From the sequence record NZ_KX832927.1: 64,000 nt of DNA, one strand, 5' to 3'. Position 1 is the stretch's first letter; each line of letters opens with the position of its first letter. The stretch is from a plasmid. The notes below the pieces were generated by a model. It searched no databases, was not told the DNA's origin, and saw only the letters and a program-made list of their open reading frames with translations. Below are positions 9,962 through 64,000 of the stretch, piece after piece. Made by a program: the position numbers and the translations under genes.

Positions 9962-10338
9962 TAGACTTTGCCTCCTTTAATCGCTTGCTGGGTCAGCTTG
10001 ATCCAGTTCAACGGGTTTTCACAGTCAACATGGTTGCCAGCGGCACCAACTACCGTTTTGTATGCCTCCGAGCCTGCCGCTGTGTGTACTGCCAGCATAA
10101 ACGAAAACATAGGGTCATTTTGCATGGTGCCAATCATCATTGCACTGGAAGTGTCTTTGAGCTGGCAGTTTTCAACCCGCAGATTGAGTACATCTTTTGC
10201 CACCATCTTACAGTCGGGACACACCTTCTCAAGGTTCTTGAGCTTTGCGTCGTCATTGAGCACATCAGGAGCCGCGATGGCAGTACCGGCCATACACAGC
10301 CCCAGTGCCAGCAGTTTGAGTTTATTGGTTACTTTCAT
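9961..10338 (-). CDS. Small secreted protein with a CPDC (thioredoxin-like CxxC) motif
   Basis: 125 aa with signal peptide MKVTNKLKLLALGLCMAGTAIA. An internal CPDC motif is followed by a further Cys. Confidence 0.4.
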   Translation of the reverse strand: MKVTNKLKLLALGLCMAGTAIAAPDVLNDDAKLKNLEKVCPDCKMVAKDVLNLRVENCQLKDTSSAMMIGTMQNDPMFSFMLAVHTAAGSEAYKTVVGAAGNHVDCENPLNWIKLTQQAIKGGKV

Positions 10339-10347
10339 GGTTCCTCT

Positions 10348-10794
10348 CTATATCGTTCCAATTTCGTTTCGGTAAAAGAACAGTGGCCCAGTGACTGTTC
10401 TGAGTTCCGGCGTTACTTGCTTTACTCTTGAGCAAATATGCTGCTTGAAAAAGTTGTGGTATCCGTACAAAGCTGGGCGTGTAAAAACGGAATAGATAAT
10501 GAGGGTGATGGCCGCACCAGCGGCCCACCCGATCACGTCCGGAGAGATAAGTCCTGGCACGTCTGAGATACGTTCTGGTTCAACCAAGCGGCACACCACC
10601 AGCACCCAGAACCACATTACCGGCATCACAAAGATCATCTTTCCGACGCAAGCAATGAGCACCTTCACCAAATTCAAGCTCTGCGCCCAGTAAAGCCACA
10701 ACGCAGACAAGGATTGGCGACGTATCACCTGGTAGACGTTCAATGGGATGTCGCACAGATGCACCCCATCTTGATTTATAACGGAGTAGCTCAT
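10348..10794 (-). CDS. Membrane protein
   Basis: 148 aa with multiple hydrophobic segments. Confidence 0.35.
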   Translation of the reverse strand: MSYSVINQDGVHLCDIPLNVYQVIRRQSLSALWLYWAQSLNLVKVLIACVGKMIFVMPVMWFWVLVVCRLVEPERISDVPGLISPDVIGWAAGAAITLIIYSVFTRPALYGYHNFFKQHICSRVKQVTPELRTVTGPLFFYRNEIGTI

Positions 10795-10803
10795 CCTCCC
10801 TCC

Positions 10804-11433
10804 CTATACCCGTTTCTGGAGGTTGCCGAACGTCAGGCCAACCAGGACACAGCACGTCATCATTGTCATCGGGATGACAACCGGATCGAGCGCTATGGGG
10901 ATGAAGAACGCGATGAACAATCCGGCCATCAGGTACATCGTTCCGCGAACGCTATAACGATGGAGAACCGGACTCGCATAATCGAAGTTGGTCCGCTTAA
11001 TTCGCCATGTCATCATCCCGTCATATACCGCAGGTACGAACAGGATCAGCATATAGGGAGCCCACGCGGCTAACAGCGCCAACCGTGTGTAGAACTGGTA
11101 AATGACGTTGACAAAGGCTTCCATGCGGCCTTTGACCCACACAAACCAGCCCTTGCCCATATCCTGCATCCCCTTGGACTTCTGGCGCTCCTCTTCTGAT
11201 GGGATCAGCGTTTGGTACATCCCCTCATAGAAGCCTGAATCAATAACGCTCGACCTGAACCAGGTAGATGCTTTGTTCTGTATCCAGTCTCTTGCTTCGA
11301 CACCAAGACTCTGTTCCACCAGCACGGATTCCCTTTTGATGGCTCTGTCTGTCCAGTCGCCAGGGATCAGCAGCAATATTGCCAGCAACTCAATAACCAG
11401 CAGCCATGCGACCAGCAACCACGGCTTCTTCAT
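10804..11433 (-). CDS. Polytopic membrane protein in a TraJ-like position of the tra operon
   Basis: 209 aa with an N-terminal transmembrane segment plus C-terminal transmembrane helices. Confidence 0.4.
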   Translation of the reverse strand: MKKPWLLVAWLLVIELLAILLLIPGDWTDRAIKRESVLVEQSLGVEARDWIQNKASTWFRSSVIDSGFYEGMYQTLIPSEEERQKSKGMQDMGKGWFVWVKGRMEAFVNVIYQFYTRLALLAAWAPYMLILFVPAVYDGMMTWRIKRTNFDYASPVLHRYSVRGTMYLMAGLFIAFFIPIALDPVVIPMTMMTCCVLVGLTFGNLQKRV

Positions 11434-11974
11434 AGTCGGTTCTCCTTAAAACAGTTTTCACGCTCTCACAGGTGATGAGCTCATACAGCAAGCCACGCAA
11501 AGAGGTCTCATCCTCATGGGGCTGCGGGTTAATGGATAGTTCTCCTGGATGGGAAGAAAGCCACAGTGAGAACGACTCTCCTGAATCGACAGACCATGAA
11601 TCACCGCCACTATCGACAATTTGCACTTCCAACGCCCGGCAGGTTTCGGTGATCAGGGTTTCCAGAAATGCCCCAATTCTGGCCGGGTCTTCATATTTCT
11701 CTCTCTGCTCATGAAACACGAGCTGGCTGTAGCGATGCAGAGCTTCTTCAATGATCGGGTAAATCACAGGCTCCTGATTAGCCTTAATCCCGTCTGTGAT
11801 GTAGCAGCTCAGCTTCTCGATGATGGCCTCCGATGCAGGCCAGTCGAATTGGAGGATGCTCAGGATGTGAGCGTTCTTGCGGCCACGACTTTTCAATTCA
11901 TTCATAACCCTGTCGAAAGGGTTCACATCGACCATGATGGCTACCTCGTAATCTCTATACTTCTTGTCACACAT
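11390..11974 (-). CDS. Acidic hypothetical protein downstream of traD
   Basis: 194-aa ORF immediately 3' of traD, overlapping the next gene. Confidence 0.4.
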   Translation of the reverse strand: MCDKKYRDYEVAIMVDVNPFDRVMNELKSRGRKNAHILSILQFDWPASEAIIEKLSCYITDGIKANQEPVIYPIIEEALHRYSQLVFHEQREKYEDPARIGAFLETLITETCRALEVQIVDSGGDSWSVDSGESFSLWLSSHPGELSINPQPHEDETSLRGLLYELITCESVKTVLRRTDYEEAVVAGRMAAGY

Positions 11975-11984
11975 AGCTCTGCTC

Positions 11985-13850
11985 TTACTGGGTCAATATG
12001 GGCAGACGGCCTTTTACGATTGTTCCGCCTGAAATTTTGGCTATGTATTCCAGGTTCGGAAGCATTCCCAATAACTGGGCTGGGAACAGATCAGCTTCCT
12101 CCTCCATCAAACGCTCGCCTTGGTTGCCTCCGTGCATAATGGGCTCCTTGCCATCCGAGTTCTGGCCTTGAGTCCGCATGACGTACTTGAGCCGGGTCTT
12201 CGGCAGGTTATCCGCGATATACTCCTGGGTTTCACCATCGACGATACGCAGAGCAAACGTGTTGTTGATGTTCCCCAACACCTGGAGCGCTTTGTCTTTG
12301 CTACCCAGTCGAGCTGCGAAGTCAGCAAAAGTCTGAGTTGCAACGAAAAGACGAAGTTTCGCACCGCGACCTTTGTTCAGGAGCTGGATGAACGGGTCGT
12401 TGATCACCTCGGCAGCCTCATCAACAAAGATATTTACGGGTCTGTTGTTGACGCCGTAGTTGTATCTGTCACCGGCAACCGCTGTCAGGTCTGACAGGAA
12501 GATGGACCCCATAGCACTACCAACCATGTTGTCGGTCAGGGAGTCGAGCCCCAGATAAGCAACTTGAGCGTTGTTGATGATTTTTGCGGAATCGGTGATC
12601 TGGCGTTCGTCGCTCAGATCAGATGAGTCTGGAGACAGCAGAGGGCCTAGCTCCCCGGACGTCAGCATATTCATGATCGGCAGGAGGTTCGCCACCATCT
12701 TGGAGAAGTGGGTTTGGTCGTGCTGGAACATCGACAGCAAGCCTTCCAGGTCAGAGTTCGGGTGCTCAGGTTGGATGATGTCGTAGTAGAACTTCATCAA
12801 CGCGAAAGCGATCTTCTCACGCGAACCGTTTTTGGCTTTTTCCAAGTAAGCCGCTGCTTCTGCCTCCCAGTCGGGCATAACTCGCTCTGAGTAAGCCTGA
12901 ACGGCCTTGATGACCAAGCCAGCAGCGCCACCTTCAAGGAATCGGCGGAGCTTTGTCAGGTTGGGACGATCATGAGTGATGACCAAGCCCTGAGCGATGT
13001 TGTTCAGTGCCTGCCATCCAAATGATTTGAACGGGTCGGCCCCTGCTTCGGACGGGATCAACGCTGCCAAACGACTTGCGATTTCAGTCACGCGGGTGAA
13101 GTTACGCAGAGGGTCGATACGCACCGACTCTTCCGGGAATGCTGGATGAAATGAGACGAATCTTTCCGGCTGCCCCATAGCTTCACAGGCACGTCGGGCA
13201 TTGTCCCGCATCTCCTTATCCCCTTTCGGGTCTATGATGATCACGGCTTCCCCACGCAGAATGGCCTGTGAAATCAGGATGTCGAACATACGGGTCTTGC
13301 CCGAGCCGGTGGTCCCAACGATCAGCGAATGCCCCTCAGTGTGCTTGAGTGGCTGCATCAGCTTCTCTTCTTTGGGCTCTACCCCGTGAATCCAGGGCTG
13401 GCCGATTGGCAGCTCCTTTTTCTTACCCTGTATCTTCCGGACAACCTTTTTGACCGTGGACTCTCTCCCTACGATGGAAGTCCAGTCGCGTTTCAGGATC
13501 TCAAACACGCGCTGGGCATGGCGGTTTTCCCACAGGAACCCACTACCAAGCCACATATCGTCCGGCGTGTCCTTGATGTACTTTTGGAGCTCCGCAATGG
13601 AAATAAACTCCAGATCACGCCCCTTCAAATGCTTTTGGAGCAGGTGAAGTTTGATAGCCTTGGGCAAACGAGCCATCGCCATCACGCCACAGATCCCCGT
13701 CATCCAATAGAATGGCTCCGGCGGCATCGTGCTGACTTGCTCTACGGCCAAAGCCGCGCCGGAGGCGGCAAGCCAGCCTGCTACAGCATTTTTTTCATAG
13801 TTGGGCCGCCACGGCATCTCGTAGGCGAGCGGGTCATAACTCATTGTCAT
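11985..13850 (-). CDS. traD: Type IV coupling protein TraD (VirD4-like ATPase)
   Basis: 621 aa with an N-terminal transmembrane region, Walker A GTTGSGKT and a Walker B-like IFVDEA. It overlaps the traI stop. Confidence 0.8.
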   Translation of the reverse strand: MTMSYDPLAYEMPWRPNYEKNAVAGWLAASGAALAVEQVSTMPPEPFYWMTGICGVMAMARLPKAIKLHLLQKHLKGRDLEFISIAELQKYIKDTPDDMWLGSGFLWENRHAQRVFEILKRDWTSIVGRESTVKKVVRKIQGKKKELPIGQPWIHGVEPKEEKLMQPLKHTEGHSLIVGTTGSGKTRMFDILISQAILRGEAVIIIDPKGDKEMRDNARRACEAMGQPERFVSFHPAFPEESVRIDPLRNFTRVTEIASRLAALIPSEAGADPFKSFGWQALNNIAQGLVITHDRPNLTKLRRFLEGGAAGLVIKAVQAYSERVMPDWEAEAAAYLEKAKNGSREKIAFALMKFYYDIIQPEHPNSDLEGLLSMFQHDQTHFSKMVANLLPIMNMLTSGELGPLLSPDSSDLSDERQITDSAKIINNAQVAYLGLDSLTDNMVGSAMGSIFLSDLTAVAGDRYNYGVNNRPVNIFVDEAAEVINDPFIQLLNKGRGAKLRLFVATQTFADFAARLGSKDKALQVLGNINNTFALRIVDGETQEYIADNLPKTRLKYVMRTQGQNSDGKEPIMHGGNQGERLMEEEADLFPAQLLGMLPNLEYIAKISGGTIVKGRLPILTQ

Positions 13851-53676: not shown

Positions 53677-55012
53677 CCTTTATTTAATGAGATGGTCACT
53701 CCCTCCTTCCCGGTACTATGCTGAGGACAGGCTTTCATTCGGAGAACTATCATGGAAAACATTGCGCTCATTGGTATCGATCTGGGTAAAAACTCTTTCC
53801 ATATTCATTGCCAGGATCGTCGCGGGAAGGCTGTTTACCGTAAAAAATTTACCCGGCCAAAGTTGATCGAATTTTTGGCGACATGCCCCGCTACAACCAT
53901 CGCAATGGAAGCCTGTGGCGGTTCTCACTTTATGGCACGCAAGTTGGAAGAGTTGGGGCATTCCCCAAAGCTGATATCACCACAATTTGTCCGCCCGTTC
54001 GTTAAAAGCAATAAAAACGACTTTGTCGACGCCGAAGCTATTTGTGAAGCTGCATCGCGTCCGTCTATGCGTTTTGTGCAGCCCAGAACGGAATCTCAGC
54101 AGGCAATGCGGGCTCTGCATCGTGTCCGTGAATCCCTGGTTCAGGATAAGGTAAAAACAACCAATCAAATGCATGCTTTTCTGCTGGAATTTGGCATTAG
54201 CGTTCCCCGAGGAGCTGCCGTTATTAGCCGACTGAGTACCATTCTTGAGGATAATAGTTTGCCTCTTTACCTCAGCCAGTTATTGCTGAAATTACAACAG
54301 CATTATCACTATCTTGTTGAGCAGATTAAAGATTTGGAATCCCAGTTGAAACGAAAGTTGGACGAAGATGAGGTTGGACAGCGCTTGCTGAGCATTCCCT
54401 GCGTCGGAACACTGACAGCGAGTACTATTTCAACTGAGATTGGCGACGGGAAGCAGTACGCCAGCAGCCGTGACTTTGCGGCGGCAACAGGGCTTGTACC
54501 TCGGCAGTACAGCACGGGAGGTAGGACGACATTGCTGGGAATTAGTAAGCGAGGTAATAAAAAGATCCGAACTTTGTTGGTTCAATGTGCCAGGGTATTC
54601 ATACAAAAACTGGAACACCAGTCTGGCAAATTGGCCGATTGGGTCAGGGATTTACTGTGCCGGAAAAGCAACTTTGTCGTCACTTGTGCTCTGGCAAACA
54701 AGCTGGCCAGAATAGCCTGGGCCCTAACGGCACGACAGCAAACTTATGTAGCATAACGGCAGAAATACACCGGTTTAAAGAATTACTGATCTGGTTTTGC
54801 GAATACTGATATTGATGATACTAACGGCCCACCGGCCTGTTGAGGAACCTGTAAAACGGAAAGGCTCATTGAAGCCGTATATTTTCTGGAGGTTCATCAG
54901 GCGCGGAACTCATCAAGGCGCGGGAATAAAATCCCATTCAGACGCCGGATAGATTCAAGCAAGCCAACTTGTCGTCAAAATCGGTGTTGCAAAAACGGGA
55001 GTGACCATAGAT
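53677..55012 (+). mobile_element. IS4321/IS5075-like element (IS110 family, IS1111 group), its left end abutted by IS26
   Basis: Subterminal repeats atggtcactccc at both ends and a 334-aa IS110-family transposase. The right end lies inside a Tn21-family 38-bp IR at the characteristic position (22 bp of IR remain). Confidence 0.65.
53752..54756 (+). CDS. IS110-family transposase (IS4321/IS5075 type)
   Basis: 334 aa, MENIALIGIDLGKNSFHIHCQDRRGKAVYRKKF..., with an N-terminal DEDD (RuvC-like) start typical of the IS110 family. Confidence 0.8.
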   Translation: MENIALIGIDLGKNSFHIHCQDRRGKAVYRKKFTRPKLIEFLATCPATTIAMEACGGSHFMARKLEELGHSPKLISPQFVRPFVKSNKNDFVDAEAICEAASRPSMRFVQPRTESQQAMRALHRVRESLVQDKVKTTNQMHAFLLEFGISVPRGAAVISRLSTILEDNSLPLYLSQLLLKLQQHYHYLVEQIKDLESQLKRKLDEDEVGQRLLSIPCVGTLTASTISTEIGDGKQYASSRDFAAATGLVPRQYSTGGRTTLLGISKRGNKKIRTLLVQCARVFIQKLEHQSGKLADWVRDLLCRKSNFVVTCALANKLARIAWALTARQQTYVA

Positions 55013-55034
55013 TCCGTTTTCTGAGGCGACCCCC
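55013..55034 (-). repeat. 22-bp outer part of a Tn21-family 38-bp terminal inverted repeat (GGGGTCGCCTCAGAAAACGGAA on the minus strand)
   Basis: A GGGG-initiated IR whose outer end faces right. IS4321-like elements target exactly this position in the IR. Confidence 0.5.
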
Positions 55035-55870
55035 AGTATTCCGGCTTTCACGGCATCGTTATCCCCGGTACGTTGCGTGACTCTATCTTTGTGCTGGAAG
55101 GGCTTCTGGAGCAGCAGACGGGGCTGAATCCGGTGGAGATTATGACGGACACTGGAGGGTCCAGCGACATTATCTTTGGCCTGTTCTGGCTGCTGGGCTA
55201 CCAGTTTTCGCCCCGCCTGGCAGATGCCGGTGAGGCGGTATTTTGGCGTGCAGATAAAAATGCGAACTACGGGGTACTGGATGAGCTGGCGCGGGGATGC
55301 GTTGAACTGTCAAAGATAGAAACCCAATGGGATGAAATGATGAGGGTTTCCGGTTCTCTGAAGCTGGGTACAGTCCACGCCTCAGAACTTGTGGGCTCGC
55401 TTTTAAAAAGTTCCCGTCCGTCAGGGCTGGCGCAGGCGATTATGGAGGTGGGACGGGTCAACAAGACGCTGTACCTCCTCAACTACATTGATGATGAAGA
55501 ATATCGTCGCAGGATACTGACTCAGCTTAACCGGGGAGAAGGCCGTCACGCCGTGGCAAGGGCGATCTGTTACGGCCAACGTGGTGAGATTAGAAAACGT
55601 TACCGTGAGGGGCAGGAGGATCAACTGGGTGCGCTGGGGCTTGTCACTAACGCAGTTGTATTGTGGAACACGCTTTATATGCAGGAAGCGCTATCACATT
55701 TGCGCAGCGCTGGTGAGATCCCGGAAGACGAGCATATCTCACGCCTGTCGCCACTGATGTACGGTCATATCAACATGCTGGGACATTATACGTTCACGCT
55801 GCCGGAAAATATTCTGAAGGGAGAGTTGAGGCCATTAAATTTCAATTCAAACAATGAATTATTGCCTTAA
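55035..55870 (+). pseudogene. tnpA: C-terminal roughly 275 codons of a Tn3-family transposase TnpA (5' part removed)
   Basis: In-frame ORF running from the IR junction to a stop inside a Tn3-family terminal IR. The 5' boundary is approximate. Confidence 0.55.
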
Positions 55871-55903: not shown

Positions 55904-56840
55904 TAGTACGAACTGAGCGAGGGATTAATGCTTAAACAACTCTTTCGATTTTTAATCGGTGATAAATTTATTCCATTGAATAAACTGAATAAAATTGATT
56001 TTGAACGTATTTCTGATTTTGAATCAATAGATTGGAGAGTCGGTGTTATCCGGAATGGTGGGCTCTATAAAAGAGATTGGTTAAAACTCAAAGACAATGA
56101 AAAAAAGGAATTAAAAAGCAATCGAAAATAAAAACTGAAAGAATAAAAATCTCTAAAAGTGACTACGACATAATAGCAAAGATAATTAATATAGAGGATC
56201 AATTTAATTTCCTTGCTAGGGATAAAATAGGTCGATTATCAAAAGTGGATAGGATGCTATTAGAGCATCTTTCTGATGATACTAAAAAGGAATTATTACA
56301 TTCAAAGTTAAGCTCTTTTAGCCTTGACGATATTGAATATATTCATTTATTAGTCTTTTTTGATAATGCAATCATTACTTAAAAAAATGAAAAAACATAA
56401 TTAAAATATAATGTTATAATTACCAATAAATAGTATGTCTCTTAATAATAATCTGATAATATCGTCTTGGGTGCTTGAATCATTTTGGTTCGAGCATTGC
56501 TAAGAGCCAAAAAGACGAAAGCCCCGAATCTTGATGTTAATCTCAATTCGAGGCAGTCTACAAACTTCGCAATTTGATTCTGTCTCCTTTTACTCAAGGA
56601 GTCAAGAGAAATGAGCAAATTTGCCCTGATAGGGCTGATTGCTGTGTGCATCACAGTTCTGTGCTTCTCATTGTTAATGCGTGATCGCTTATGTTCACTA
56701 AATTTCACAAGCGGAGGCACAGTGGTTCAAGCAACGTTATCTTGTGATAAGTAACGTTGCTCTTGTGGGGGAAACCCCCACATTTTCTCTTTTACAGATT
56801 ACGATAGTTTGGTGATACAAGCACCCTTTTATTCGGTTAA

Positions 56841-57110
56841 CTATGGTTTACTCTTTTTGCTATCAATCATGCCACTTTCGTTGAATAGATAGATAAGCCA
56901 GTATATTAAATATAATGCTGTTGTAATCATGCCTATATTGATCATCAATAATCCGAATCGCGGTGTATTATTAATATCAAACAGTAAATCATCTCTGATA
57001 AAATAACTAAAGAGTAAAAATACAACTGATATACCAGAATAACCAAATGCAAATTTGAATAGTCTTGATTTCGATTTAGCGAAAATCATTATTAAAATTA
57101 TCAAAAACAA
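56841..57110 (-). CDS. Small membrane protein
   Basis: 89 aa, two transmembrane segments, AT-rich. Confidence 0.3.
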   Translation of the reverse strand: MFLIILIMIFAKSKSRLFKFAFGYSGISVVFLLFSYFIRDDLLFDINNTPRFGLLMINIGMITTALYLIYWLIYLFNESGMIDSKKSKP

Positions 57111-57179: not shown

Positions 57180-57268
57180 ATAGTTGTTTAATAGAACTAT
57201 CATACATTTATTATAGTTCTATTTTATAGGTAATTTTCATATCAATTGTAATTAAGATAAAAAAATTA

Positions 57269-58183
57269 CTATCTCAACTCAATCTCTTTCGCCAACTTAT
57301 TGTATTTGTAATTCGTAATTTGGCCATTTACTAATAATTCAACGGCTTGTTGAATCACATTTAAAGGCGCAATAAACCACTCTTTAGGTTGATGATTTTT
57401 ACCATCTTTATCTGCAACAAATAAATCAAGGCAAGACTCACCAAAGAAAGCATGTAAGTAATATTCAAATTTCTGTGGGTTAATATTGAATGCTTGATAC
57501 TCAGCAATTACGTCAACATCAGCCATCAAATAGGTAGGTTCTTTTTTTGCATTAGCAATACGTTTTTCAACAGTTGTAGTTGCAAATCCAATTTTATAGA
57601 GGTGATCAAGTGACTGAATACGTGGATCTTTACTTTGTGACTTTAGGATATAAATATAACCTGTAGATGTATCATCTTCGGTAATACCGCCAAAATGAGT
57701 ATAGAAATTGGAGTTTTCTTGCTCATTCGTTTCTGAAACAATACGTCCATCTTTATACAATGCTTTAGCTAGTGAGCGATAAAGCATAGTTGATTCGGTG
57801 CCATTCTCAAAGATGGTTCGTGTCCGACCATCTTTACGAAAACGCTTGCCATCCACGGTTTTAGCCTCAGACGTAAAATTGATATCTGCAAGATAAACCA
57901 GCAAGCCATTTAAAACATAGTAATTACCTTCAACTAGTTGGTATCCCTTATCGTTGAAAGGTAATAACTTACGTTTACCTTCCCGAAGCTCTTGATGAAC
58001 ATTTTTAAATAGATGTTCAAATTGATCAAAGTCCTTACAGCGTTTGCGTTTAGCAACCTCGTCTGCAGCAGCACGTTGGGCAGTAACATGTTTAATCTTA
58101 AAGATGTCACCATCTTGACCATCATCTAGTAGACCTAGATCATCATCATTAAAAATATCTTCGAGAGATTTAATCTCAGACAT
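57269..58183 (-). CDS. T5orf172 / GIY-YIG-like domain protein (candidate nuclease of the operon)
   Basis: 304 aa. C-terminal GYIYILKSQSK...LYKIGFATTTVEKRIANAK matches the T5orf172 (GIY-YIG-like) pattern. The N-terminal acidic DDDLGLL motif is shared with the upstream 95-aa protein. Confidence 0.55.
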   Translation of the reverse strand: MSEIKSLEDIFNDDDLGLLDDGQDGDIFKIKHVTAQRAAADEVAKRKRCKDFDQFEHLFKNVHQELREGKRKLLPFNDKGYQLVEGNYYVLNGLLVYLADINFTSEAKTVDGKRFRKDGRTRTIFENGTESTMLYRSLAKALYKDGRIVSETNEQENSNFYTHFGGITEDDTSTGYIYILKSQSKDPRIQSLDHLYKIGFATTTVEKRIANAKKEPTYLMADVDVIAEYQAFNINPQKFEYYLHAFFGESCLDLFVADKDGKNHQPKEWFIAPLNVIQQAVELLVNGQITNYKYNKLAKEIELR

Positions 58184-58186
58184 GTT

Positions 58187-58474
58187 TTAGTCCTGCTGTT
58201 CTGGGAGCAAATTATGTTCATCGTAATCTGCCAAAGCCATATATTGCTCTGGATTACTCTTGATCGATTCTAGACGACTCGCAAGCATAAACTCCGAAAT
58301 GTTTGCCATATTTTTGGTAGGTACACGTCCATGCTGTGTCATAAAGTTATTGATTTCATTAAATTTAGAGACTAATTGTTCATCAGCAGTTAGGGCTGAA
58401 GTCTTTTTCTTAACTTTTAAAAGCCCCAAATCGTCATCAGCAATCATATCGTGAAGCCAGTCAAAATCTTCCAT
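58187..58474 (-). CDS. Small acidic protein with an N-terminal DDDLGLL motif
   Basis: 95 aa, separated by 3-4 bp from both neighbouring genes. Its N-terminus resembles that of the T5orf172 protein. Confidence 0.45.
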   Translation of the reverse strand: MEDFDWLHDMIADDDLGLLKVKKKTSALTADEQLVSKFNEINNFMTQHGRVPTKNMANISEFMLASRLESIKSNPEQYMALADYDEHNLLPEQQD

Positions 58475-58477
58475 GTT

Positions 58478-60409
58478 TTACACTCCAGCTCGTCTACGTT
58501 GTTCACGAATATAGATTAAGCATTCAGCTAGTCGCTTCTCAATTAAGTTACTTGACTCTAGACTAGGTTCACGTCCTGTTTGTTTAGTGAAGGCTTTGAG
58601 TTTAGGCCACAGCTCAATTGCTTCTTCCTGAGTCATACTAATTTTAGTTGCTTCAATTGCTTCTTTAATCAATTTCAAAACATTCACTGTGACATCCTTT
58701 GACAGAATCTCAAAAGCCTTTTGGAATGGATTCACAGATTGAATAAGATCAATATTGAGATCATCAATATTGACAAACTTATCCGCCATACGAATAAATT
58801 TCTTATCACCGACTTCTTTTACTTCTGCTGTACTAATCACTGAGTCAACTACTAAATATTGACTCACTTCCTCAAGCTCTGATTTTGTTAAATCTGGATA
58901 TTTAGTTTGGATAATCTTTGGAATAAGGACCTTATTGACTACTTCAGGCTCAACCTTTCCAGCAGAGCCAGCGATCACTTTGGCATCTTGAAGAATTGCT
59001 GCTTTTAGATCCACAAGATCATTTTCAATAATCGCTTTTGTTTTTGCTGTACTTGGTTCTTTAAATCCTTTGATGGTTAAAGTGCCTGGTGGAACAATAT
59101 CCTCATCATCTCGTTTAGTTTTAAACTTGAAGTTTGGTGCAAGGATCTGCTCCATGAGCAAAGATGCAGTAATTGCTTTAAGCATGTTATTTACTGCAAA
59201 TTTGACTTCAGTATCTTGAGCATCAGGTTGTGCAATAAGATTTGTGAACTGTGCATGTGATTTGTTTGAGCTATCACGAGTACAGCGACCTACGATTTGC
59301 ACAATTTCTGTCAAAGATCCCCGATAACCAATCGTTAAGGCATGTTCACAGAATTGCCAGTCAAACCCTTCTTTTGCCATTCCAAGAGCAATAATTAGAT
59401 CAAGATCATCGACTGTTTTGATATTTCGTAGATATTCAACAACTTTGTCGCGCCCATCTTCTTCAACTAGATCAGCTACTTTTAAAATCTTACCATCTGG
59501 ACGTTTGATGGTAATAATGCCAGTATCGGGGGCTTTAGCAATGAACTCGCCAATAATTTCGAGAATGGCATCAACTTCATCATATTTATCTTTGGTTGAT
59601 TCACCTGAATTTACATTTGGAATATGAATGATGGTCTTTTTGTCGGTATCTAATACATACTCAAGAGCAATATTACCTTCATCATCTTTAGTAAAATAAC
59701 GACCTTTATAAAAGTGATATCCTATGCCAAGTGATTTTAAGTAAGTGTAACCATTTAATTGTTCATAATAGTTGAACGAAACTTTATCAAACTTGGCTTC
59801 ATCTTCAGGGGTAAGTACAGGAACGCTATCACCACGGAAGTAAGAGCCTGTCATTGCAATAATATGAGCTGTGGTATTGTCCATCAGAGATTTAAGAACA
59901 GTACCTAAAATATTATCGGCATCTGCTGATACATGATGGAATTCATCAATTGCGACTAATGTGTTGTCAAATACCTTATCTTCAAGCTCTTCAAAAGCGA
60001 ATCTTAATGTAGCATGGGTACACACCAAGATCTGATCAGAGTCTTCTATAAAGCGTTTAAAGGCTTTTACTTTGCTTTTGTCCCCACCAGCAGTACATAA
60101 GTTGTTTTCAGGTTTAATATCCCAATCTGCAAAAAAACCATTTTCTGTAAGCTTAGTGTTAGCAAATGAACCACCGATAGAGCGTTCAGGTACAGCTACG
60201 ATAACTTTTTTAATACCTTGATTATGCAGTTTATCCAACGCTAGGAACATTAATGCACGAGATTTACCTGAAGCGGGTGGTGCTTTTAACAATAAATATT
60301 GTGAGTTGCGAGATGCGTAAGCACGAGCTTGCATAGCCCGCATACCCATGTTGTTTGTTGAGGTGCTTTCACCAGTTTGCTGGTAACAAACATCAATTAT
60401 ATTAATCAT
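58478..60409 (-). CDS. SF2 DEAD/DEAH-box helicase (restriction-type translocase/helicase)
   Basis: 643 aa with motif I LLKAPPASGKS, motif II AIDEFHH, motif III-like AMTGSY and motif VI QIVGRCTR. It overlaps the methyltransferase gene stop by 8 bp. Confidence 0.7.
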   Translation of the reverse strand: MINIIDVCYQQTGESTSTNNMGMRAMQARAYASRNSQYLLLKAPPASGKSRALMFLALDKLHNQGIKKVIVAVPERSIGGSFANTKLTENGFFADWDIKPENNLCTAGGDKSKVKAFKRFIEDSDQILVCTHATLRFAFEELEDKVFDNTLVAIDEFHHVSADADNILGTVLKSLMDNTTAHIIAMTGSYFRGDSVPVLTPEDEAKFDKVSFNYYEQLNGYTYLKSLGIGYHFYKGRYFTKDDEGNIALEYVLDTDKKTIIHIPNVNSGESTKDKYDEVDAILEIIGEFIAKAPDTGIITIKRPDGKILKVADLVEEDGRDKVVEYLRNIKTVDDLDLIIALGMAKEGFDWQFCEHALTIGYRGSLTEIVQIVGRCTRDSSNKSHAQFTNLIAQPDAQDTEVKFAVNNMLKAITASLLMEQILAPNFKFKTKRDDEDIVPPGTLTIKGFKEPSTAKTKAIIENDLVDLKAAILQDAKVIAGSAGKVEPEVVNKVLIPKIIQTKYPDLTKSELEEVSQYLVVDSVISTAEVKEVGDKKFIRMADKFVNIDDLNIDLIQSVNPFQKAFEILSKDVTVNVLKLIKEAIEATKISMTQEEAIELWPKLKAFTKQTGREPSLESSNLIEKRLAECLIYIREQRRRAGV

Positions 60410-63122
60410 TTAAACGCTCCTCCTCAATCATCTTATTATAAAGATTAAAAAGGTGCTCAAGTCTTTCTTCATCTGAATCTAATGTTTTTTTATAATAGCA
60501 CTGCTCAACAATTCTATCATTTTCCTGATGTGCTAATAATAGATCTAATGGCATAGTATCTGGATCATATAATTTAGACATTGGTAAATTTGAATATGTT
60601 TCTCTAATCGTTAAGATGTTAAATGCTGATGCAACTAACTCCTCCTTTAACTCCTTAGTAATTTTAGGAAATGGGAATGTATTGTAGCAAAGCACCGATG
60701 AATACCTTAAACGTGTCTCAAGTGCCCCTCCGACAGCTCTTACCCAAAGCATGTGCATTTTGGATGTTAGAAGGGAAAATACATAAGGTTCTGGATTATA
60801 TATAGCAAACGCAAGATTATTAATTATGATCGAATCATCTAAAAAACCTATCGGAATATATGGACGACGTTCCGAAGATGTTCCTGGAATAATTATAGCT
60901 GAACCTGCTTGGTGTCTAATCTCAATAAAACGATATGGACGATCGGCAAATTGTTGATATGACTTTTTTTTACTTTGTGCACGCTCGACATACACTGAAT
61001 TTAACCGCTCTTGCATTGGTGGAATATCCTTAATTTCATGTAAATCTCCTTCTGATATCCATAAACACCATCTGTCTATGCCTTTAATAAACTCATTAGA
61101 ACCAACAACTTTTTTAATAAATGGTTTTAATTTTGGATACTCATTAATTAATTGATCCTTTTCTTCTGTTGAAAAATGCAAATATCCCCAATCATTAGGC
61201 ATATTTCCTAAAACCATTTTAGGTAAATTTGATAGAACTTTTGTTCTTTTAGAGACAGTAGGAGTATTTAAAGAGGTTAAATAAGGACTAATATTTTTGC
61301 AAACTAGGACTCTATTTTCCTGATAAAGCTTTCTATTTAAAGGCAAGTATTCGTTATTAATCAATCCAACAATAATACATGTAACACCTGCATTAGATTT
61401 TGCACTATTAGTCCATTTAAAAGCTTTATGTGCAAAATGTATATCTACATTATTTTGATAAATGAGAGGCCAAAGTAATGAAACTTGCTCCCCTTGAGAT
61501 AAAGAGTTTGTTGAAACAAATGCAAGAGAGCCTTTAGTACTTTTAATATATTGTGAACCTTTAATAAACCAACAGGATATATAATCTAATTTCGTAGTTG
61601 AACCAATTACAGCATATAAATCATTTTTTTGACTTTCTGATTGTTGTGAAAAACCTTTGTAAGGAGGGTTCCCTAGCACGAAGACTTCATCGTTTTCTGT
61701 AATTGGACATAGATCTGACCAACTTATTTGGACGGCATTTGCATTTATGATATTACCTCCTTTTTTAAGAGGTAAGGATGGTAAAGATTCTCCAAATTCA
61801 TCTTTAAAAGCAATATTCATTTGGTGTTCAGCTAACCATAAAGATAATATGGCTATTTCATGTGCAAAATCATCAATTTCTATACCATAAAATTGAGAAA
61901 CCTGAATCACTGAAAATGGTTTTGAAAGCTGACCTGTTTTATCAAGTTCAAGCTCTTGAATACGTTTTAAAAGCTCCTTTTCAAACTTACGAAGCTCTTT
62001 ATAAGCAATAATAAGAAAGTTTCCTGAACCACATGCAGGGTCAAAAATTTTCAATTGCCCTAAACGCTGCTGTAGCTGCAATAATTTATTTATGCTGTCC
62101 TGATTCTTTTCTAGTTCTTCGTAAAGGTCATTCAAAAATAAAGGTTCAATAACCTTCATAATATTTGGAACAGACGTATAGTGCTGTCCCATATTGCTAC
62201 GTTGTTCCGTATGAACAACTGCTTGGAACATTGAACCAAAAATATCAGGATTAATATCAGACCAATCTAATTCTGCACCACATTCAATCAAGATTTGGCG
62301 TGATTTACGGTTAAATTTAGGAACTTGGATATCATCCTTAAAGAGACCACCATTTACATAAGGAAAATCTGATAAGTAGTCTGGTAGATCTTTAGGGCGT
62401 TGCTGTTTTGATTGATTTAAAACAACAAACAATCGCTTTAAATAGTCTGATAGATCTGAACCATCTTGTTTTGTATGAGAACCAATAGCATCAGAAAACT
62501 GTTTATCTTTGAAAATTTCTGTATCTTCAGCAAAATAACAAAACAGTAATCGTGATAAGAAAATATTGAGTTGATGTAAATTCTCTTTATTATTTAAGCC
62601 ATCTTCATCGAAATTATCTGCTTTAATTTCGTCAAAGAGCTTTGCCAATTTTTCGGCTGCTTTAACATCCGCTGGGTTTTCACCCTGATATACAGCTTTC
62701 TCCATCCCAGCCCATGGTAGGAAGAAATCAAATTTTTTAGCTAAATCACTAAACTCGATATCCAAACTATCATTTGTTTTGGTATCAATAGCTAATAATT
62801 TTTTAAAATCCGTGACTATTAAGAAACGAATCTTATTGCCTTCAGTTCGTCTTTCTTGCTTCATTTGGTCAATGAGACCATATAGATCTTGTTGTTTTGC
62901 AATTTTAAAATAGAGTTGGCGCTTCCAAAAAACAGAGTTTTCCTTATCTTCAGCTAAATTTCGCTCACCAGAGCGCACACGCCCCACAGACTGACTGCGA
63001 TGTCCATAAGCTAAAAGCAACTCATAGATAAAGTCTTGTTTGTTTAACTCATCTTGAGTAATTTTACTGATGATCTGTTTAACATTTTCTTCGATTTGGA
63101 CAATATTCATGTGACATGACAA
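60402..63122 (-). CDS. MmeI-family N6-adenine DNA methyltransferase with a degenerate N-terminal nuclease-like region
   Basis: 906 aa. Methyltransferase motif I FDPACGSGNFL and motif IV LGNPPY are present. There is extended collinear similarity to the MmeI family (LSRLLFCYFAEDTEIF, HYTSVPNIMKVIEPLFL, FVSTNSLSQGEQVSLLWPL, GGALETRLRYSSVLCYNTFPFP). The region that aligns with the MmeI PD-ExK motif reads NSVFWKRQLYFKIAK and lacks the Asp and Glu. Confidence 0.75.
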   Translation of the reverse strand: MSCHMNIVQIEENVKQIISKITQDELNKQDFIYELLLAYGHRSQSVGRVRSGERNLAEDKENSVFWKRQLYFKIAKQQDLYGLIDQMKQERRTEGNKIRFLIVTDFKKLLAIDTKTNDSLDIEFSDLAKKFDFFLPWAGMEKAVYQGENPADVKAAEKLAKLFDEIKADNFDEDGLNNKENLHQLNIFLSRLLFCYFAEDTEIFKDKQFSDAIGSHTKQDGSDLSDYLKRLFVVLNQSKQQRPKDLPDYLSDFPYVNGGLFKDDIQVPKFNRKSRQILIECGAELDWSDINPDIFGSMFQAVVHTEQRSNMGQHYTSVPNIMKVIEPLFLNDLYEELEKNQDSINKLLQLQQRLGQLKIFDPACGSGNFLIIAYKELRKFEKELLKRIQELELDKTGQLSKPFSVIQVSQFYGIEIDDFAHEIAILSLWLAEHQMNIAFKDEFGESLPSLPLKKGGNIINANAVQISWSDLCPITENDEVFVLGNPPYKGFSQQSESQKNDLYAVIGSTTKLDYISCWFIKGSQYIKSTKGSLAFVSTNSLSQGEQVSLLWPLIYQNNVDIHFAHKAFKWTNSAKSNAGVTCIIVGLINNEYLPLNRKLYQENRVLVCKNISPYLTSLNTPTVSKRTKVLSNLPKMVLGNMPNDWGYLHFSTEEKDQLINEYPKLKPFIKKVVGSNEFIKGIDRWCLWISEGDLHEIKDIPPMQERLNSVYVERAQSKKKSYQQFADRPYRFIEIRHQAGSAIIIPGTSSERRPYIPIGFLDDSIIINNLAFAIYNPEPYVFSLLTSKMHMLWVRAVGGALETRLRYSSVLCYNTFPFPKITKELKEELVASAFNILTIRETYSNLPMSKLYDPDTMPLDLLLAHQENDRIVEQCYYKKTLDSDEERLEHLFNLYNKMIEEERLND

Positions 63123-63173
63123 CCATTTTTAAGCTGATAATTTGTTAAATAAACAATGAGTTAATATGACTAA

Positions 63174-63198
63174 GAACCTATCCCAATAGGTTTTTATT
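63174..63198. repeat. 25-bp GAACCTATCCCAATAGGTTTTTATT at the terminus of the adjacent IS (identical to 57155-57179)
   Basis: Exact repeat. The IS orfB stop codon lies inside it. Confidence 0.5.
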
Positions 63199-63450
63199 CC
63201 AGACAATGACACCACAGGCAAAATGCAGCATCGCCTCATAATTCTCGACTTTCTTCTCCCAACGAGTCAGGACACGACGATAGCGATTCATCCAACTGTG
63301 TGTTCTCTCTACAACCCAGCGGTGAGCCTTAAAATCCGTGTTTTTGATGGCTTCTGACTCATCCTTCCGTGACTGGATATGAGGTTCATAGCGACGACTT
63401 TTCAGATACGATTTCAACCATTCCGCTTCATACCCTTTGTCCATGCACAA
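63178..63450 (-). CDS. IS5-family transposase OrfB, C-terminal DDE part
   Basis: 90-aa ORF in a different frame from orfA. A frameshift fusion with the upstream frame (which starts at about 63570) is likely. Confidence 0.45.
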   Translation of the reverse strand: MCMDKGYEAEWLKSYLKSRRYEPHIQSRKDESEAIKNTDFKAHRWVVERTHSWMNRYRRVLTRWEKKVENYEAMLHFACGVIVWNKNLLG

Positions 63451-63571
63451 CCGGAGCCTCTTGCATGGTCTGCCCGTCTGGAGGGCATCGAGCGTATCCG
63501 CAACCAGCTTTATGTTCCGGCTACAACCAGTGCAAGCGGAAGCCTGTTCGCGTCAGTCATCAGACTGCGCT

Positions 63572-63970
63572 TTACTCCCTGTTTCCCACGGTCTGTAGGG
63601 TTCCGGCCTGTTTTTTTGAGCCTGCCAGGGGTGATTTTGTCATACAACCATCAATCGACAGCCACGACCAGTCAATAGCGTCCAGCTGTTCGCTGGCAAG
63701 CAACCCGTTTTGCCAGAAGCGTTCAAATACGCCAGCATCCCGCCACTCTTGAAATCGGCGGTGAGCAGAGCTTGACGAGCATATACCGGTGGCATTCAGC
63801 GCATTCCACTGGCAACCCGTCCTGAGTACGAAGAAGATGGCGTTCATTGCAGCGCGATTATCAACCCGCTTGCGGTGCGTACCCAGAGGATGGTGAGTTT
63901 TATGCTCCGGAATCAGTTGAGCCATTTTCTCCCAGAGTCCATCACTGATCTGCCACTTGTTGCCCGTCAC
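63572..63970 (-). CDS. IS5-family transposase OrfA (HTH part)
   Basis: 132 aa. The gene begins 30 bp inside the window edge. Confidence 0.5.
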   Translation of the reverse strand: MTGNKWQISDGLWEKMAQLIPEHKTHHPLGTHRKRVDNRAAMNAIFFVLRTGCQWNALNATGICSSSSAHRRFQEWRDAGVFERFWQNGLLASEQLDAIDWSWLSIDGCMTKSPLAGSKKQAGTLQTVGNRE

Positions 63971-64000
63971 GCTTCGCCTTCAGAAATTATCATTATGTAT

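What the first reader, a model, noticed from the sequence alone, without database searches (positions are those of the whole stretch)
57269..63122. Candidate uncharacterised defence operon: MmeI-like methyltransferase, SF2 helicase, small acidic protein, T5orf172/GIY-YIG-like protein
Four tightly packed minus-strand genes sit in an AT-rich segment of about 33% GC that is embedded in GC-rich resistance DNA. The genes have overlapping stops and starts or 3-4 bp spacers.

- The first gene is a 906-aa MmeI-family N6-adenine methyltransferase. Its motifs I and IV are intact, but its N-terminal nuclease-like region lacks the PD-ExK acidic residues.
- It is followed by a 643-aa DEAD/DEAH helicase, a 95-aa acidic protein and a 304-aa T5orf172 (GIY-YIG-like) protein.
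- This looks like a split restriction-modification-like system: the methyltransferase marks self DNA, the helicase translocates, and a separate GIY-YIG-type protein could cut.
- BREX PglX proteins are MmeI-like, but I see no PglZ, BrxC or BrxL here. I also see no DISARM DrmB/DrmC-type genes, and no Hma-type ATPase.
- I cannot match this gene set to a described system.
Basis: partly seen in the sequence, partly recalled or inferred. Interest (0 to 1): 0.85.

Follow-up and report, generated by a model that had tools for sequence, protein, structure and literature searches.

The report
Plasmid copy of YeeA-YeeB-YeeC restriction-like cassette
The four genes are a real, intact copy of a widespread restriction-like cassette first described in 2009 (a methyltransferase without its nuclease, a helicase and a GIY-YIG nuclease); it is not a new system, and its "small acidic protein" is the front part of the nuclease gene, which is split in two in this lineage.

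Summary
Four packed minus-strand genes lie at 57269-63122 in 30-38% GC DNA. The MmeI-like methyltransferase has all five MmeI domains and intact motifs I and IV, but lacks the PD-ExK catalytic residues.

The claim that it matches no described system is wrong. This is the YeeA(DnmA)/YeeB/YeeC cluster. Morgan et al. 2009 described nuclease-less MmeI homologues "invariably" flanked by a DEAD helicase and a GIY-YIG protein, and proposed the same split restriction-modification model. A Vibrio crassostreae homologue protects against phage. The Bacillus subtilis copy shows no defence phenotype. No biochemistry was found for any copy.

New here:
- The 95-aa and 304-aa proteins are one YeeC gene split at a linker. 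YeeC is a single ORF in 65 of 73 related loci. Both pieces are under purifying selection (dN/dS 0.04-0.14).
- An acidic DDxLGLL-type motif occurs twice in YeeC, and each split piece begins with one copy.
- The 95-aa domain shares a module with the helicase C-terminal tail.
- The methyltransferase's target-recognition domain diverges far faster than the helicase.
- Related loci carry the same embedded genes as type I restriction operons.

Verdict: new member of a known kind, moderate interest.

The parts
60402..63110 (-). yeeA/dnmA-like gene. It encodes an MmeI-family gamma-class N6-adenine DNA methyltransferase with a TRD and a nuclease-dead N-terminal domain. It is 902 aa from the ATG at 63110; the mechanical ORF starts at the TTG at 63122.
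   Evidence: Pfam finds MmeI_N, MmeI_hel, MmeI_Mtase (E 4e-100), MmeI_TRD and MmeI_C. The match to MmeI 5HR4 has E 3.5e-195, with E80 aligned to K73 and K82 to a gap. In 45 cassette-linked MTases, E80 is K or R in 44 and K82 is deleted in 42. DPACGSGNF and NPPY are present. The start is set by the conserved MNIVQIEEN N-terminus.
58478..60409 (-). yeeB-like gene. It encodes an SF2 DEAD/DEAH-type (DEFH) helicase or translocase of 643 aa, with a C-terminal HA-like tail.
   Evidence: Pfam finds DEAD, ResIII and Helicase_C. Motifs I, II, III and VI are intact. Homologues at 71-72% identity are named 'ATP-dependent helicase YeeB' by UniRef. Identity is 59-94% in 80 loci from many phyla. The C-terminal tail is homologous to the YeeC N-domain (hhalign probability 94%). 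GGAGG lies upstream of the start.
58187..58474 (-). yeeC part 1. It encodes a 95-aa acidic protein (pI 4.6), which is the split-off N-terminal domain of YeeC. It consists of the first DDDLGLL motif followed by an HA-like helical module.
   Evidence: It lies in the same ORF as the T5orf172 part in 65 of 73 loci. The colinear alignment is. dN/dS is 0.07-0.135. It hits the N-terminus of YeeC-length proteins in the 1.8-billion-protein library (348 hits).
57269..58183 (-). yeeC part 2. It encodes a 304-aa protein with the second DDDLGLL motif, a beta-rich middle domain and a C-terminal T5orf172 (GIY-YIG superfamily) domain.
63111..63168 (-). A short remnant of the native upstream region of the cassette, about 58 nt, between the MTase ATG and the end of the IS5-family element.
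   Evidence: Homology with the Acinetobacter lwoffii upstream region covers only about 55 nt. No sigma-70-like site was found here on the minus strand.
63169..64000 (-). An IS5-family insertion sequence that abuts the cassette and has the same orientation. It is not part of the system but may affect its expression.
   Evidence: It is 94% identical to annotated IS5-family transposase genes on Vibrio plasmids, and the identical junction occurs in pDZa and Proteus plasmids.

Best explanation
The block at 57269-63110 is a plasmid-borne, sequence-intact copy of the YeeA(DnmA)/YeeB/YeeC cassette. This is an ATP-dependent, restriction-modification-like defence module built from separate subunits.

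Most likely mechanism (every step below is inferred from sequence and context, none was shown here):
1. The MmeI-like YeeA recognises a short asymmetric site through its TRD and methylates one adenine on one strand, which marks self DNA.
2. YeeA's N-terminal domain has lost the PD-ExK active site and instead serves as the docking surface for the partner proteins.
3. On unmodified foreign DNA, the YeeA-bound SF2 motor YeeB hydrolyses ATP and translocates.
4. The GIY-YIG (T5orf172) domain of YeeC nicks or cuts the DNA, probably at a distance or on collision, as in type I and type ISP enzymes.

In the Acinetobacter/Morganellaceae clade to which this copy belongs, yeeC is split at an interdomain linker into a 95-aa adaptor piece and a 304-aa nuclease piece. 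Each piece starts with one copy of a conserved acidic DDxLGLL-type motif. This motif is plausibly a tether to YeeB or YeeA.
For: Known family:
- Morgan 2009 (PMC2731913) described the cluster and this model.
- DnmA methylates GACGAG in vivo and in vitro (PMC7261158).
- Inactivating yeeAB in V. crassostreae restores sensitivity to one phage group.

- The MTase has the full MmeI architecture but lacks ExK.
- The order MT, helicase, YeeC is conserved in loci from Pseudomonadota, Bacteroidota, Campylobacterota, Bacillota, Actinomycetota, Saccharibacteria, Nitrospirae and Elusimicrobia.
- All catalytic-type motifs of the MTase, helicase and GIY-YIG domain are intact here, and the GIY-YIG core is invariant family-wide.
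- dN/dS is 0.03-0.14 for the helicase and both YeeC pieces.
- Against close relatives (L005, L006), the TRD is only 46% identical, while the helicase is 94% and the MTase N-domain 85-90%. This is the pattern expected of a swappable specificity subunit whose N-domain co-evolves with the motor.
- Related loci carry RhuM, Fic/DOC, DUF1016, AlbA_2, KAP and PrrC-like AAA_13 genes between the MTase and the helicase. From my own knowledge, these are the same passengers found in type I R-M operons.
- The split junction TAA-NNN-ATG is conserved, and AGGA lies upstream of the second start.
Against: - No biochemical demonstration of cleavage, translocation or complex formation exists for any YeeABC in the literature searched.
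- B. subtilis yeeB and yeeC deletions show no phage phenotype, and dnmA deletion has no effect on transformation or growth.
- The DnmA site is not depleted in Bacillus phage genomes.
- YeeA and MslORFHP expressed alone show no endonuclease activity. This is expected under the model, but it is not positive evidence.
- In this window an IS5-family element sits 59 nt upstream of the MTase start, and no promoter-like site was found between them. Expression of this particular copy is therefore unproven.
- The helicase AlphaFold model was of low confidence (pLDDT 58.9).
- The YeeC structure searches gave only weak matches.
Confidence: 0.6

Rival explanations
1. It is a relic. The methyltransferase works as an orphan epigenetic enzyme and the helicase and YeeC genes no longer restrict anything. 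This is the conclusion reached for B. subtilis dnmA-yeeB-yeeC.
For: In B. subtilis there is no phage, transformation or growth phenotype (PMC9973331 and PMC7261158). In this window the native upstream region is replaced by an IS5-family element 59 nt from the start codon, with no promoter-like site. Sister copies are visibly decaying: ISVsa5 is inserted in pDZa, IS26 truncates the copy in pG32-177, and ISAba1 truncates the copy in Tn2009.
Against: All four ORFs in the window are full length with intact catalytic motifs. Purifying selection on the helicase and both YeeC pieces is strong (dN/dS 0.03-0.14 at dS 0.6-1.2). The helicase is 59% identical or more across phyla, which is hard to reconcile with general loss of function. 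The Vibrio homologue defends against phage.
Confidence: 0.2
2. It is an ordinary single-chain type IIL/IIG restriction-modification enzyme (like MmeI) that happens to sit next to unrelated helicase and nuclease genes.
For: PADLOC's type IIG model matches end to end (E 5.5e-301). [quoted passage not shown] The match to MmeI 5HR4 has E 3.5e-195.
Against: The ExK part of the catalytic motif is absent here and in 44 of 45 cassette-linked homologues. Two such proteins showed no endonuclease activity when expressed. The neighbours are not random: the helicase and YeeC follow in fixed order in every locus that is long enough, with overlapping or 3-nt junctions here.
Confidence: 0.03
3. It is a methylation-guided exclusion system that does not cut DNA, in the manner proposed for BREX. 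The helicase and YeeC would block replication or remodel invading DNA, and the T5orf172 domain would act as a DNA-binding module and not as a nuclease.
For: The MmeI-like MTase is related to PglX and DrmMI (weak PADLOC and NCBIfam hits). T5orf172 has been described as a DNA-binding domain. The DnmA site is not avoided by Bacillus phages.
Against: The GIY-YIG catalytic-type residues (Y178, R208, E268 and others) are invariant in 68 YeeC proteins. No PglZ, BrxC, BrxL or DrmA/B/C match was found for any of the cassette proteins. One chimera replaces the end of YeeC with an Mrr-type nuclease, which suggests the position is a nuclease slot. That locus is a single example and is damaged.
Confidence: 0.12
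4. The helicase-YeeC module is an autonomous unit that pairs with various upstream partners, and the MTase is only one optional neighbour.
For: In some loci no MmeI-like gene was found within 6 kb upstream (L028, L029, L032, L048). In L038 the MTase lies downstream.
Against: Where the upstream region could be read, the gap is filled by co-directional passenger genes, and an MmeI-like gene lies beyond them in most loci. The 6-kb flank limit explains the misses. Morgan 2009 and Fernandez 2023 both report consistent co-occurrence. The MTase N-domain tracks helicase identity.
Confidence: 0.05

Closest known systems
YeeA(DnmA)/YeeB/YeeC cluster of Bacillus subtilis and its homologues (Morgan et al. 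2009; Nye et al. 2020; Fernandez et al. 2023; Vibrio crassostreae yeeAB, Piel et al. 2021 preprint)
   Same: The MTase is MmeI-like but lacks PD-ExK. A DEAD-family helicase follows directly and then a T5orf172/GIY-YIG protein, all on one strand. The block lies in low-GC, horizontally acquired DNA.
   Different: yeeC is split into 95-aa and 304-aa ORFs, which is specific to this clade. The copy is plasmid-borne among resistance and IS elements. Its recognition sequence is unknown, and its TRD is only 32-46% identical to those of the relatives compared.
Type IIL enzymes (MmeI family, PDB 5HR4)
   Same: The helical spacer, gamma-class MTase, TRD and C-terminal domains are shared, and the N-terminal domain fold family (Pfam MmeI_N) is still recognisable. 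Methylation is probably on one strand of an asymmetric site.
   Different: The catalytic E80 and K82 equivalents are missing and D70 is replaced by S. Cleavage, if any, must come from a separate protein and should depend on ATP.
Type ISP enzymes (LlaGI, LlaBIII)
   Same: They combine the same activities: a nuclease, an SF2 motor, a gamma-class adenine MTase and a TRD, with single-strand modification. They are the most likely mechanistic analogue (translocation and collision).
   Different: In type ISP all activities are in one polypeptide and the nuclease is Mrr-type PD-(D/E)xK. Here there are three or four polypeptides and the nuclease is of the GIY-YIG superfamily.
Type I restriction-modification systems (HsdM/HsdS/HsdR)
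   Same: The subunits are separate, the motor is ATP-dependent, the specificity module is swappable, and related loci carry the same embedded passenger genes (RhuM, Fic, DUF1016, PrrC-like).
   Different: There is no separate S subunit. The nuclease is not fused to the motor. The MTase-TRD is a single chain, so sites are likely asymmetric and hemimethylated.
Tn2009 / Tn6206 blaOXA-23 transposons of Acinetobacter baumannii
   Same: They carry an 85%-identical copy of the helicase (truncated) and both YeeC pieces, already labelled yeeB and yeeC in that literature.
   Different: There the cassette is a remnant, because ISAba1 removes the MTase and the 5' end of the helicase. The copy in this window is complete.

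Membership tests
YeeA/YeeB/YeeC (nuclease-less MmeI homologue cluster, Morgan 2009) | The MTase is similar to MmeI along its whole length except for roughly the first 100 residues. | tested here: met
   All five MmeI Pfam domains are present. phmmer against 5HR4 gives E 3.5e-195 and covers residues 65-899.
YeeA/YeeB/YeeC (nuclease-less MmeI homologue cluster, Morgan 2009) | The PD-ExK motif (MmeI D70, E80, K82) is absent. | tested here: met
   E80 aligns to K73 and K82 to a gap. D70 corresponds to S63 by register (MmeI residues 1-71 were recalled from memory, and residues from 72 onward were checked).
YeeA/YeeB/YeeC (nuclease-less MmeI homologue cluster, Morgan 2009) | A DEAD-superfamily helicase gene (YeeB-like) lies immediately downstream on the same strand. 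| tested here: met
   Pfam finds DEAD and ResIII. The gene overlaps the MTase by 8 nt. Homologues at 71-72% identity are named YeeB by UniRef.
YeeA/YeeB/YeeC (nuclease-less MmeI homologue cluster, Morgan 2009) | A GIY-YIG/T5orf172 protein gene (YeeC-like) follows the helicase. | tested here: met
   Pfam finds T5orf172 and MUG113. The two ORFs joined end to end align colinearly with single 381-410-aa YeeC proteins, including those of the Bacillus and Aneurinibacillus loci L062-L064.
YeeA/YeeB/YeeC (nuclease-less MmeI homologue cluster, Morgan 2009) | Direct sequence homology to the B. subtilis 168/PY79 YeeA, YeeB and YeeC proteins themselves. | not tested
The link rests on source-given names, on the Bacillaceae loci L062-L064 and on the published descriptions.
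YeeA/YeeB/YeeC (nuclease-less MmeI homologue cluster, Morgan 2009) | m6A methylation of one strand of a short asymmetric site. | not testable with these tools
   This needs SMRT or nanopore methylome data from a host carrying the plasmid.
Type IIL single-chain R-M enzyme (MmeI family proper) | An intact N-terminal PD-ExK endonuclease active site. | tested here: not met
   Morgan 2009 lists D70, E80 and K82 as completely conserved in active enzymes.
Type ISP R-M enzyme | A single polypeptide with an Mrr nuclease, an SF2 helicase, an MTase and a TRD. | tested here: not met
   The activities lie on separate ORFs. No Mrr domain was found. The nuclease candidate is T5orf172.
Type I R-M system | A separate HsdS specificity subunit and an HsdR with the nuclease fused to the motor. 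| tested here: not met
   The TRD is part of the MTase chain. The helicase has no nuclease domain match. There is no HsdS-like ORF in 55.9-63.2 kb.
BREX | PglZ phosphatase and a BrxC ATPase (with BrxL, PglW and others) accompany PglX. | tested here: not met
   The PADLOC scan of the four cassette proteins and two neighbouring ORFs gave no PglZ, BrxC or BrxL match. The PglX models hit only the MTase core weakly (E 1e-5 to 1e-7). The flanks are hok/sok and an IS element.
DISARM | A DrmA helicase, DrmB (DUF1998) and DrmC or DrmD accompany the MTase. | tested here: not met
   The helicase gives no DrmA or DrmD match at E 0.01 or better. Only DrmMI models partially hit the MTase.

The most novel reading that the evidence does not exclude
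YeeABC would be a distinct, still uncharacterised class of ATP-dependent restriction-modification enzyme. Three features would define it:
- A nuclease-dead MmeI-like MTase-TRD recruits an exceptionally conserved SF2 motor and a GIY-YIG nuclease.
- The complex is held together by short acidic DDxLGLL tethers and HA-like modules, both noted here for the first time as far as the searched literature shows.
- The clade on Acinetobacter and Morganellaceae resistance plasmids has turned YeeC into two subunits.

This intact plasmid copy would then be an active barrier to phage or to incoming plasmids in clinical Enterobacterales and Acinetobacter.
Probability: 0.4. Interest if true: 0.55.

Novelty: new member of a known kind. 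Interest (0 to 1): 0.35.

Why it matters
- The cassette family is very widespread. The 2023 PADLOC database and NCBIfam have no model for the helicase or for either YeeC piece, and no biochemistry was found in the library searched.
- An intact copy on a resistance plasmid of clinical relevance is a convenient starting point for reconstitution.
- The split-YeeC form offers a natural dissection of adaptor and nuclease.
- Automated tools will label such loci 'type IIG R-M' on the strength of the MTase alone, although that protein cannot cut.
- Remnants of the same cassette travel with blaOXA-23 in Tn2009-type transposons. The history of this block is therefore tied to the spread of carbapenem resistance in Acinetobacter.
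- None of this makes the locus a new kind of system. The gene set and the proposed mechanism were published in 2009.

Tried and rejected
- PADLOC and NCBIfam scans for a named multi-gene system found only type IIG, DrmMI and PglX-type hits to the MTase. The helicase gave weak Cas3 and PbeA hits. The YeeC pieces gave nothing useful.
- PDB sequence searches with the helicase and the 304-aa protein gave no hits.
- The AlphaFold2 model of the helicase had pLDDT 58.9 because the alignment was shallow. It was too poor to search with, so I did not use it.
- BLASTP of the 95-aa protein against its two neighbours found nothing. The relationship to the helicase tail appeared only with profile-profile comparison.
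- Pfam at relaxed thresholds gave no family for the 95-aa domain or the helicase tail.
- The promoter and terminator scan found fewer promoter-like sites than in shuffled sequence and none upstream of the MTase.
- The cassette has no match in complete E. coli genomes at megablast sensitivity.
- I considered the 95-aa protein as an independent fourth component, such as an antitoxin or regulator. I rejected this because it is fused to YeeC in 65 of 73 loci.
- I considered the 89-aa membrane ORF at 56841-57110 as a fifth gene. I rejected this because the block shared with Acinetobacter ends at 57268.

Full report
**1. Observation**

The ORF list shows four minus-strand ORFs at exactly the stated coordinates: 60402-63122 (906 aa), 58478-60409 (643 aa), 58187-58474 (95 aa) and 57269-58183 (304 aa). 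The first two overlap by 8 nt and the other two junctions are 3-nt spacers. GC is 0.30-0.38 across the block and 0.48-0.64 in the DNA at 50-55.5 kb.

Pfam finds all five MmeI domains in the first protein. It finds DEAD, ResIII and Helicase_C in the second, nothing in the third, and T5orf172 and MUG113 in the fourth. MTase motifs I and IV and helicase motifs I, II, III and VI are intact.

The first protein matches solved MmeI (5HR4) at E 3.5e-195. The alignment begins only at MmeI F72. It puts K73 opposite the catalytic E80 and a gap opposite K82, and D70 corresponds by register to S63.

There is one correction. The N-terminus MNIVQIEEN is conserved in homologues, so translation starts at the ATG at 63110 and not at the TTG at 63122.

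**2. What it is**

A plasmid search found the block in several places:
- At 100% identity in Morganella morganii pDZa, where ISVsa5 interrupts the 3' end of the MTase.
- At 99.9% in Proteus terrae plasmids, where IS26 truncates the MTase.
- At 85% in Acinetobacter plasmids.
- In the pABTJ1/Tn2009 blaOXA-23 transposon, where ISAba1 has removed the MTase and the 5' end of the helicase.

The Acinetobacter literature labels those remnants yeeB and yeeC (PMC3691203). That name leads to the key paper. Morgan et al. 2009 (PMC2731913) split MmeI homologues into two sets. The second set lacks PD-ExK, differs in the first ~100 residues, and is 'invariably' flanked by a DEAD-family helicase (YeeB) and a GIY-YIG protein (YeeC). 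They proposed that the MmeI-like subunit gives specificity and protective single-strand methylation, and that its N-terminal domain recruits separate helicase and endonuclease subunits.

Later work adds the following:
- YeeA, renamed DnmA, methylates GACGAG (PMC7261158).
- The synteny is conserved. B. subtilis yeeB and yeeC deletions have no phage phenotype, and dnmA deletion has no effect on transformation or growth, so the authors call the locus a relic (PMC9973331).
- In Vibrio crassostreae 7F1_18, inactivating yeeAB restores sensitivity to one phage group (bioRxiv 10.1101/2021.05.05.442762).
- I found no paper with biochemistry of the complex, and no new system name.
- PADLOC and NCBIfam have no model for the helicase or YeeC. 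PADLOC's type IIG model matches the MTase end to end at E 5.5e-301, so automated annotation would call a stand-alone type IIG enzyme. That label is misleading.

**3. Own comparative analysis**

A scan of one genome per species with the helicase found 157 relatives, of which 80 loci were kept. Identity is 59-94%, across Pseudomonadota, Bacteroidota, Campylobacterota, Bacillota, Actinomycetota, Saccharibacteria, Nitrospirae and Elusimicrobia. tblastn of the four window proteins shows the order MTase, helicase, YeeC throughout.

The '95-aa acidic protein' is not a separate component. In 65 of 73 loci with both hits, it and the T5orf172 protein are one ORF of about 381-410 aa. The two window proteins joined end to end align colinearly with these fused YeeC proteins. 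The split form is confined to one clade: the window, Acinetobacter spp., one Pseudomonas contig and one Flavobacteriaceae MAG. In the protein database every homologue of the 304-aa protein at 66% identity or more is 304 aa long, apart from a few shorter fragments. Almost every one at 61% or less is 383-446 aa.

The split is functional and not decay:
- The junction GAC-TAA-AAN-ATG is conserved.
- An AGGA lies upstream of the second start.
- dN/dS against Acinetobacter copies is 0.07-0.135 for the 95-aa piece and 0.04-0.10 for the 304-aa piece, at dS 0.6-1.2.

**4. Features bearing on mechanism**

- (a) In 45 cassette-linked MTases, MmeI E80 is K or R in 44 and K82 is deleted in 42. Loss of the active site is therefore ancestral to the subfamily.
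- (b) The GIY-YIG-type core of YeeC (G175, Y178, K197, G199, R208, E240, H244, E268, W269) is invariant in 68 sequences. This favours a working nuclease.
- (c) Against close relatives (L005, L006), the helicase is 94% identical and the MTase N-domain 85-90%, but the TRD is only 46% and the C-domain 42%. The TRD is being swapped, as in specificity subunits. The dead-nuclease N-domain tracks the motor, as expected if it is the docking surface.
- (d) An acidic motif of the form [LI]xDIxxDDxLGLL occurs twice in every YeeC, once at the N-terminus and once just after the linker. The split falls so that each polypeptide begins with one copy. I infer that it is a tethering peptide, but this is untested.
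- (e) The core of the 95-aa domain is homologous to the last ~45 residues of the helicase (hhalign probability 94%, E 1.2e-7). It resembles Pfam HA 'helicase-associated' repeats more weakly (probability 70%; phmmer E 1e-8 to a six-HA-repeat protein).
- (f) In many Bacteroidota and Campylobacterota loci, 1-5 kb of co-directional genes lie between the MTase and the helicase. These are AlbA_2-Schlafen/HATPase_c_4, RhuM, Bro-N, KAP NTPase, Fic/DOC, DUF1016/YhcG, PrrC-like AAA_13 and Mrr-nSTAND3. From my own knowledge of type I R-M loci, for example prrC in EcoprrI, these are the same passengers that are embedded in hsd operons. This is contextual support for an R-M-like defence locus.
- (g) One metagenomic locus (L085) has a YeeC whose C-terminal part is replaced by an Mrr-type nuclease. 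The helicase there is interrupted by a transposase gene, so this single case carries little weight.

**5. Structure attempts**

**6. State of this copy**

All four ORFs are full length, unlike the copies in pDZa, pG32-177 and Tn2009. However, an IS5-family element in the same orientation ends 59 nt upstream of the MTase ATG, at a junction shared with pDZa and Proteus plasmids. Only about 55 nt of native upstream sequence remain, and no sigma-70-like site was found there. Expression is therefore unproven. On the other side lie a hok/sok module (sok at 75 bits, 56469-56621; hok ORF 56611-56754) and then Tn3-family and IS110-family remnants. The block shared with Acinetobacter runs from 57268 to about 63163, which defines the mobile unit as the cassette alone.

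**7. Mechanism, rivals and confidence**

*Best explanation (confidence about 0.6).* This is a split, ATP-dependent, R-M-like defence module. YeeA reads and methylates one strand of an asymmetric site. On unmodified DNA it engages YeeB, which translocates, and YeeC cuts through its GIY-YIG domain. Type ISP enzymes are the closest mechanistic analogue. Shown in the literature for homologues: methylation by DnmA, and phage protection in Vibrio. Shown here: architecture, motif integrity, selection, synteny and TRD swapping. Inferred: complex formation, translocation, cleavage and the role of the motifs.

*Rivals:*
- A relic with an orphan MTase, as in B. subtilis (0.2).
- A non-cleaving exclusion system in the manner of BREX (0.12).
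- An autonomous helicase-YeeC module (0.05).
- An ordinary single-chain type IIL enzyme (0.03; refuted by the missing ExK).

**8. Novelty and score**

The gene set, its conserved synteny and the proposed mechanism have been in the literature since 2009. This locus is a new, intact, plasmid-borne member of that family.

As far as the searched literature shows, the following appear to be new:
- The recognition that the 'fourth gene' is a split YeeC domain.
- The duplicated acidic motif.
- The HA-like module shared with the helicase tail.
- The type-I-like embedded passengers.

These are refinements within a known kind. The family remains biochemically uncharacterised and is poorly served by defence-annotation tools, which gives it moderate value as an experimental target. 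Interest is 0.35.

Noticed in passing
window 56469-56754 (+): A hok/sok-type toxin-antitoxin module lies about 500 bp beyond the end of yeeC. Rfam sok (RF01794) scores 75 bits at 56469-56621. A 47-aa Hok/Gef-like ORF lies at 56611-56754.
   Followed up: partly
window 63169-64000 (-): An IS5-family insertion sequence abuts the cassette 59 nt upstream of the MTase start, in the same orientation. The identical junction is present in Morganella pDZa and in Proteus plasmids. It may supply or block transcription of the operon.
   Followed up: partly
window 60402-63110; PADLOC model PDLC03598: PADLOC's 'type IIG restriction enzyme-methyltransferase' model scores 999 bits end to end on this protein, although the endonuclease motif is missing. 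Automated defence annotation will probably report a stand-alone type IIG R-M system here and at other YeeA loci.
   Followed up: no
L018, L021-L024, L026-L029, L031-L035, L040, L041, L045, L048, L050-L052, L056, L059-L061, L066, L071, L074 (between MTase and helicase): Co-directional passenger genes are embedded between yeeA and yeeB in Bacteroidota and Campylobacterota. They include AlbA_2-Schlafen/HATPase_c_4 (11 loci), RhuM (7), Bro-N (6), KAP NTPase (4), Fic/DOC, DUF1016/YhcG, AAA_13 (PrrC-like) and Mrr-nSTAND3. Several families had no Pfam match (for example 310-aa, 283-aa and 350-aa proteins, and a 1213-aa protein in L048).
   Followed up: partly
L085 8001-9665 (protein P0311): This is a chimeric YeeC. 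The N-terminal adaptor, both acidic motifs and the first half of the T5orf172 domain are followed by an Mrr-type PD-(D/E)xK nuclease domain. It sits in a yeeA-yeeB locus whose helicase is interrupted by a transposase gene.
   Followed up: partly
L001 (pABTJ1) 9749-12365; window 57268-60361: The Tn2009-type blaOXA-23 transposon of A. baumannii carries an 85%-identical remnant of this cassette (a truncated helicase and both YeeC pieces) between blaOXA-23 and the second ISAba1 copy. More than 70 Acinetobacter plasmid records match.
   Followed up: partly
window 56841-57110 (-): An 89-aa strongly hydrophobic ORF lies 158 bp downstream of yeeC on the same strand, with no family match. It lies outside the block shared with Acinetobacter, so it is probably not part of the cassette.
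   Followed up: partly
window 53752-55870: An IS110-family (IS4321/IS5075-like) transposase gene at 53752-54756 and a truncated Tn3-family transposase fragment at 55073-55870 mark the boundary between the GC-rich resistance region and the low-GC plasmid-backbone fragment that holds the cassette.
   Followed up: no
window 58478-60409 and loci L005-L084: The helicase is unusually conserved for a defence gene. It is 59% identical between this copy and Streptococcus mitis, and 62% with Saccharibacteria. The partner MTase's TRD is only 32-46% identical to the window's in every relative compared, close or distant.
   Followed up: partly
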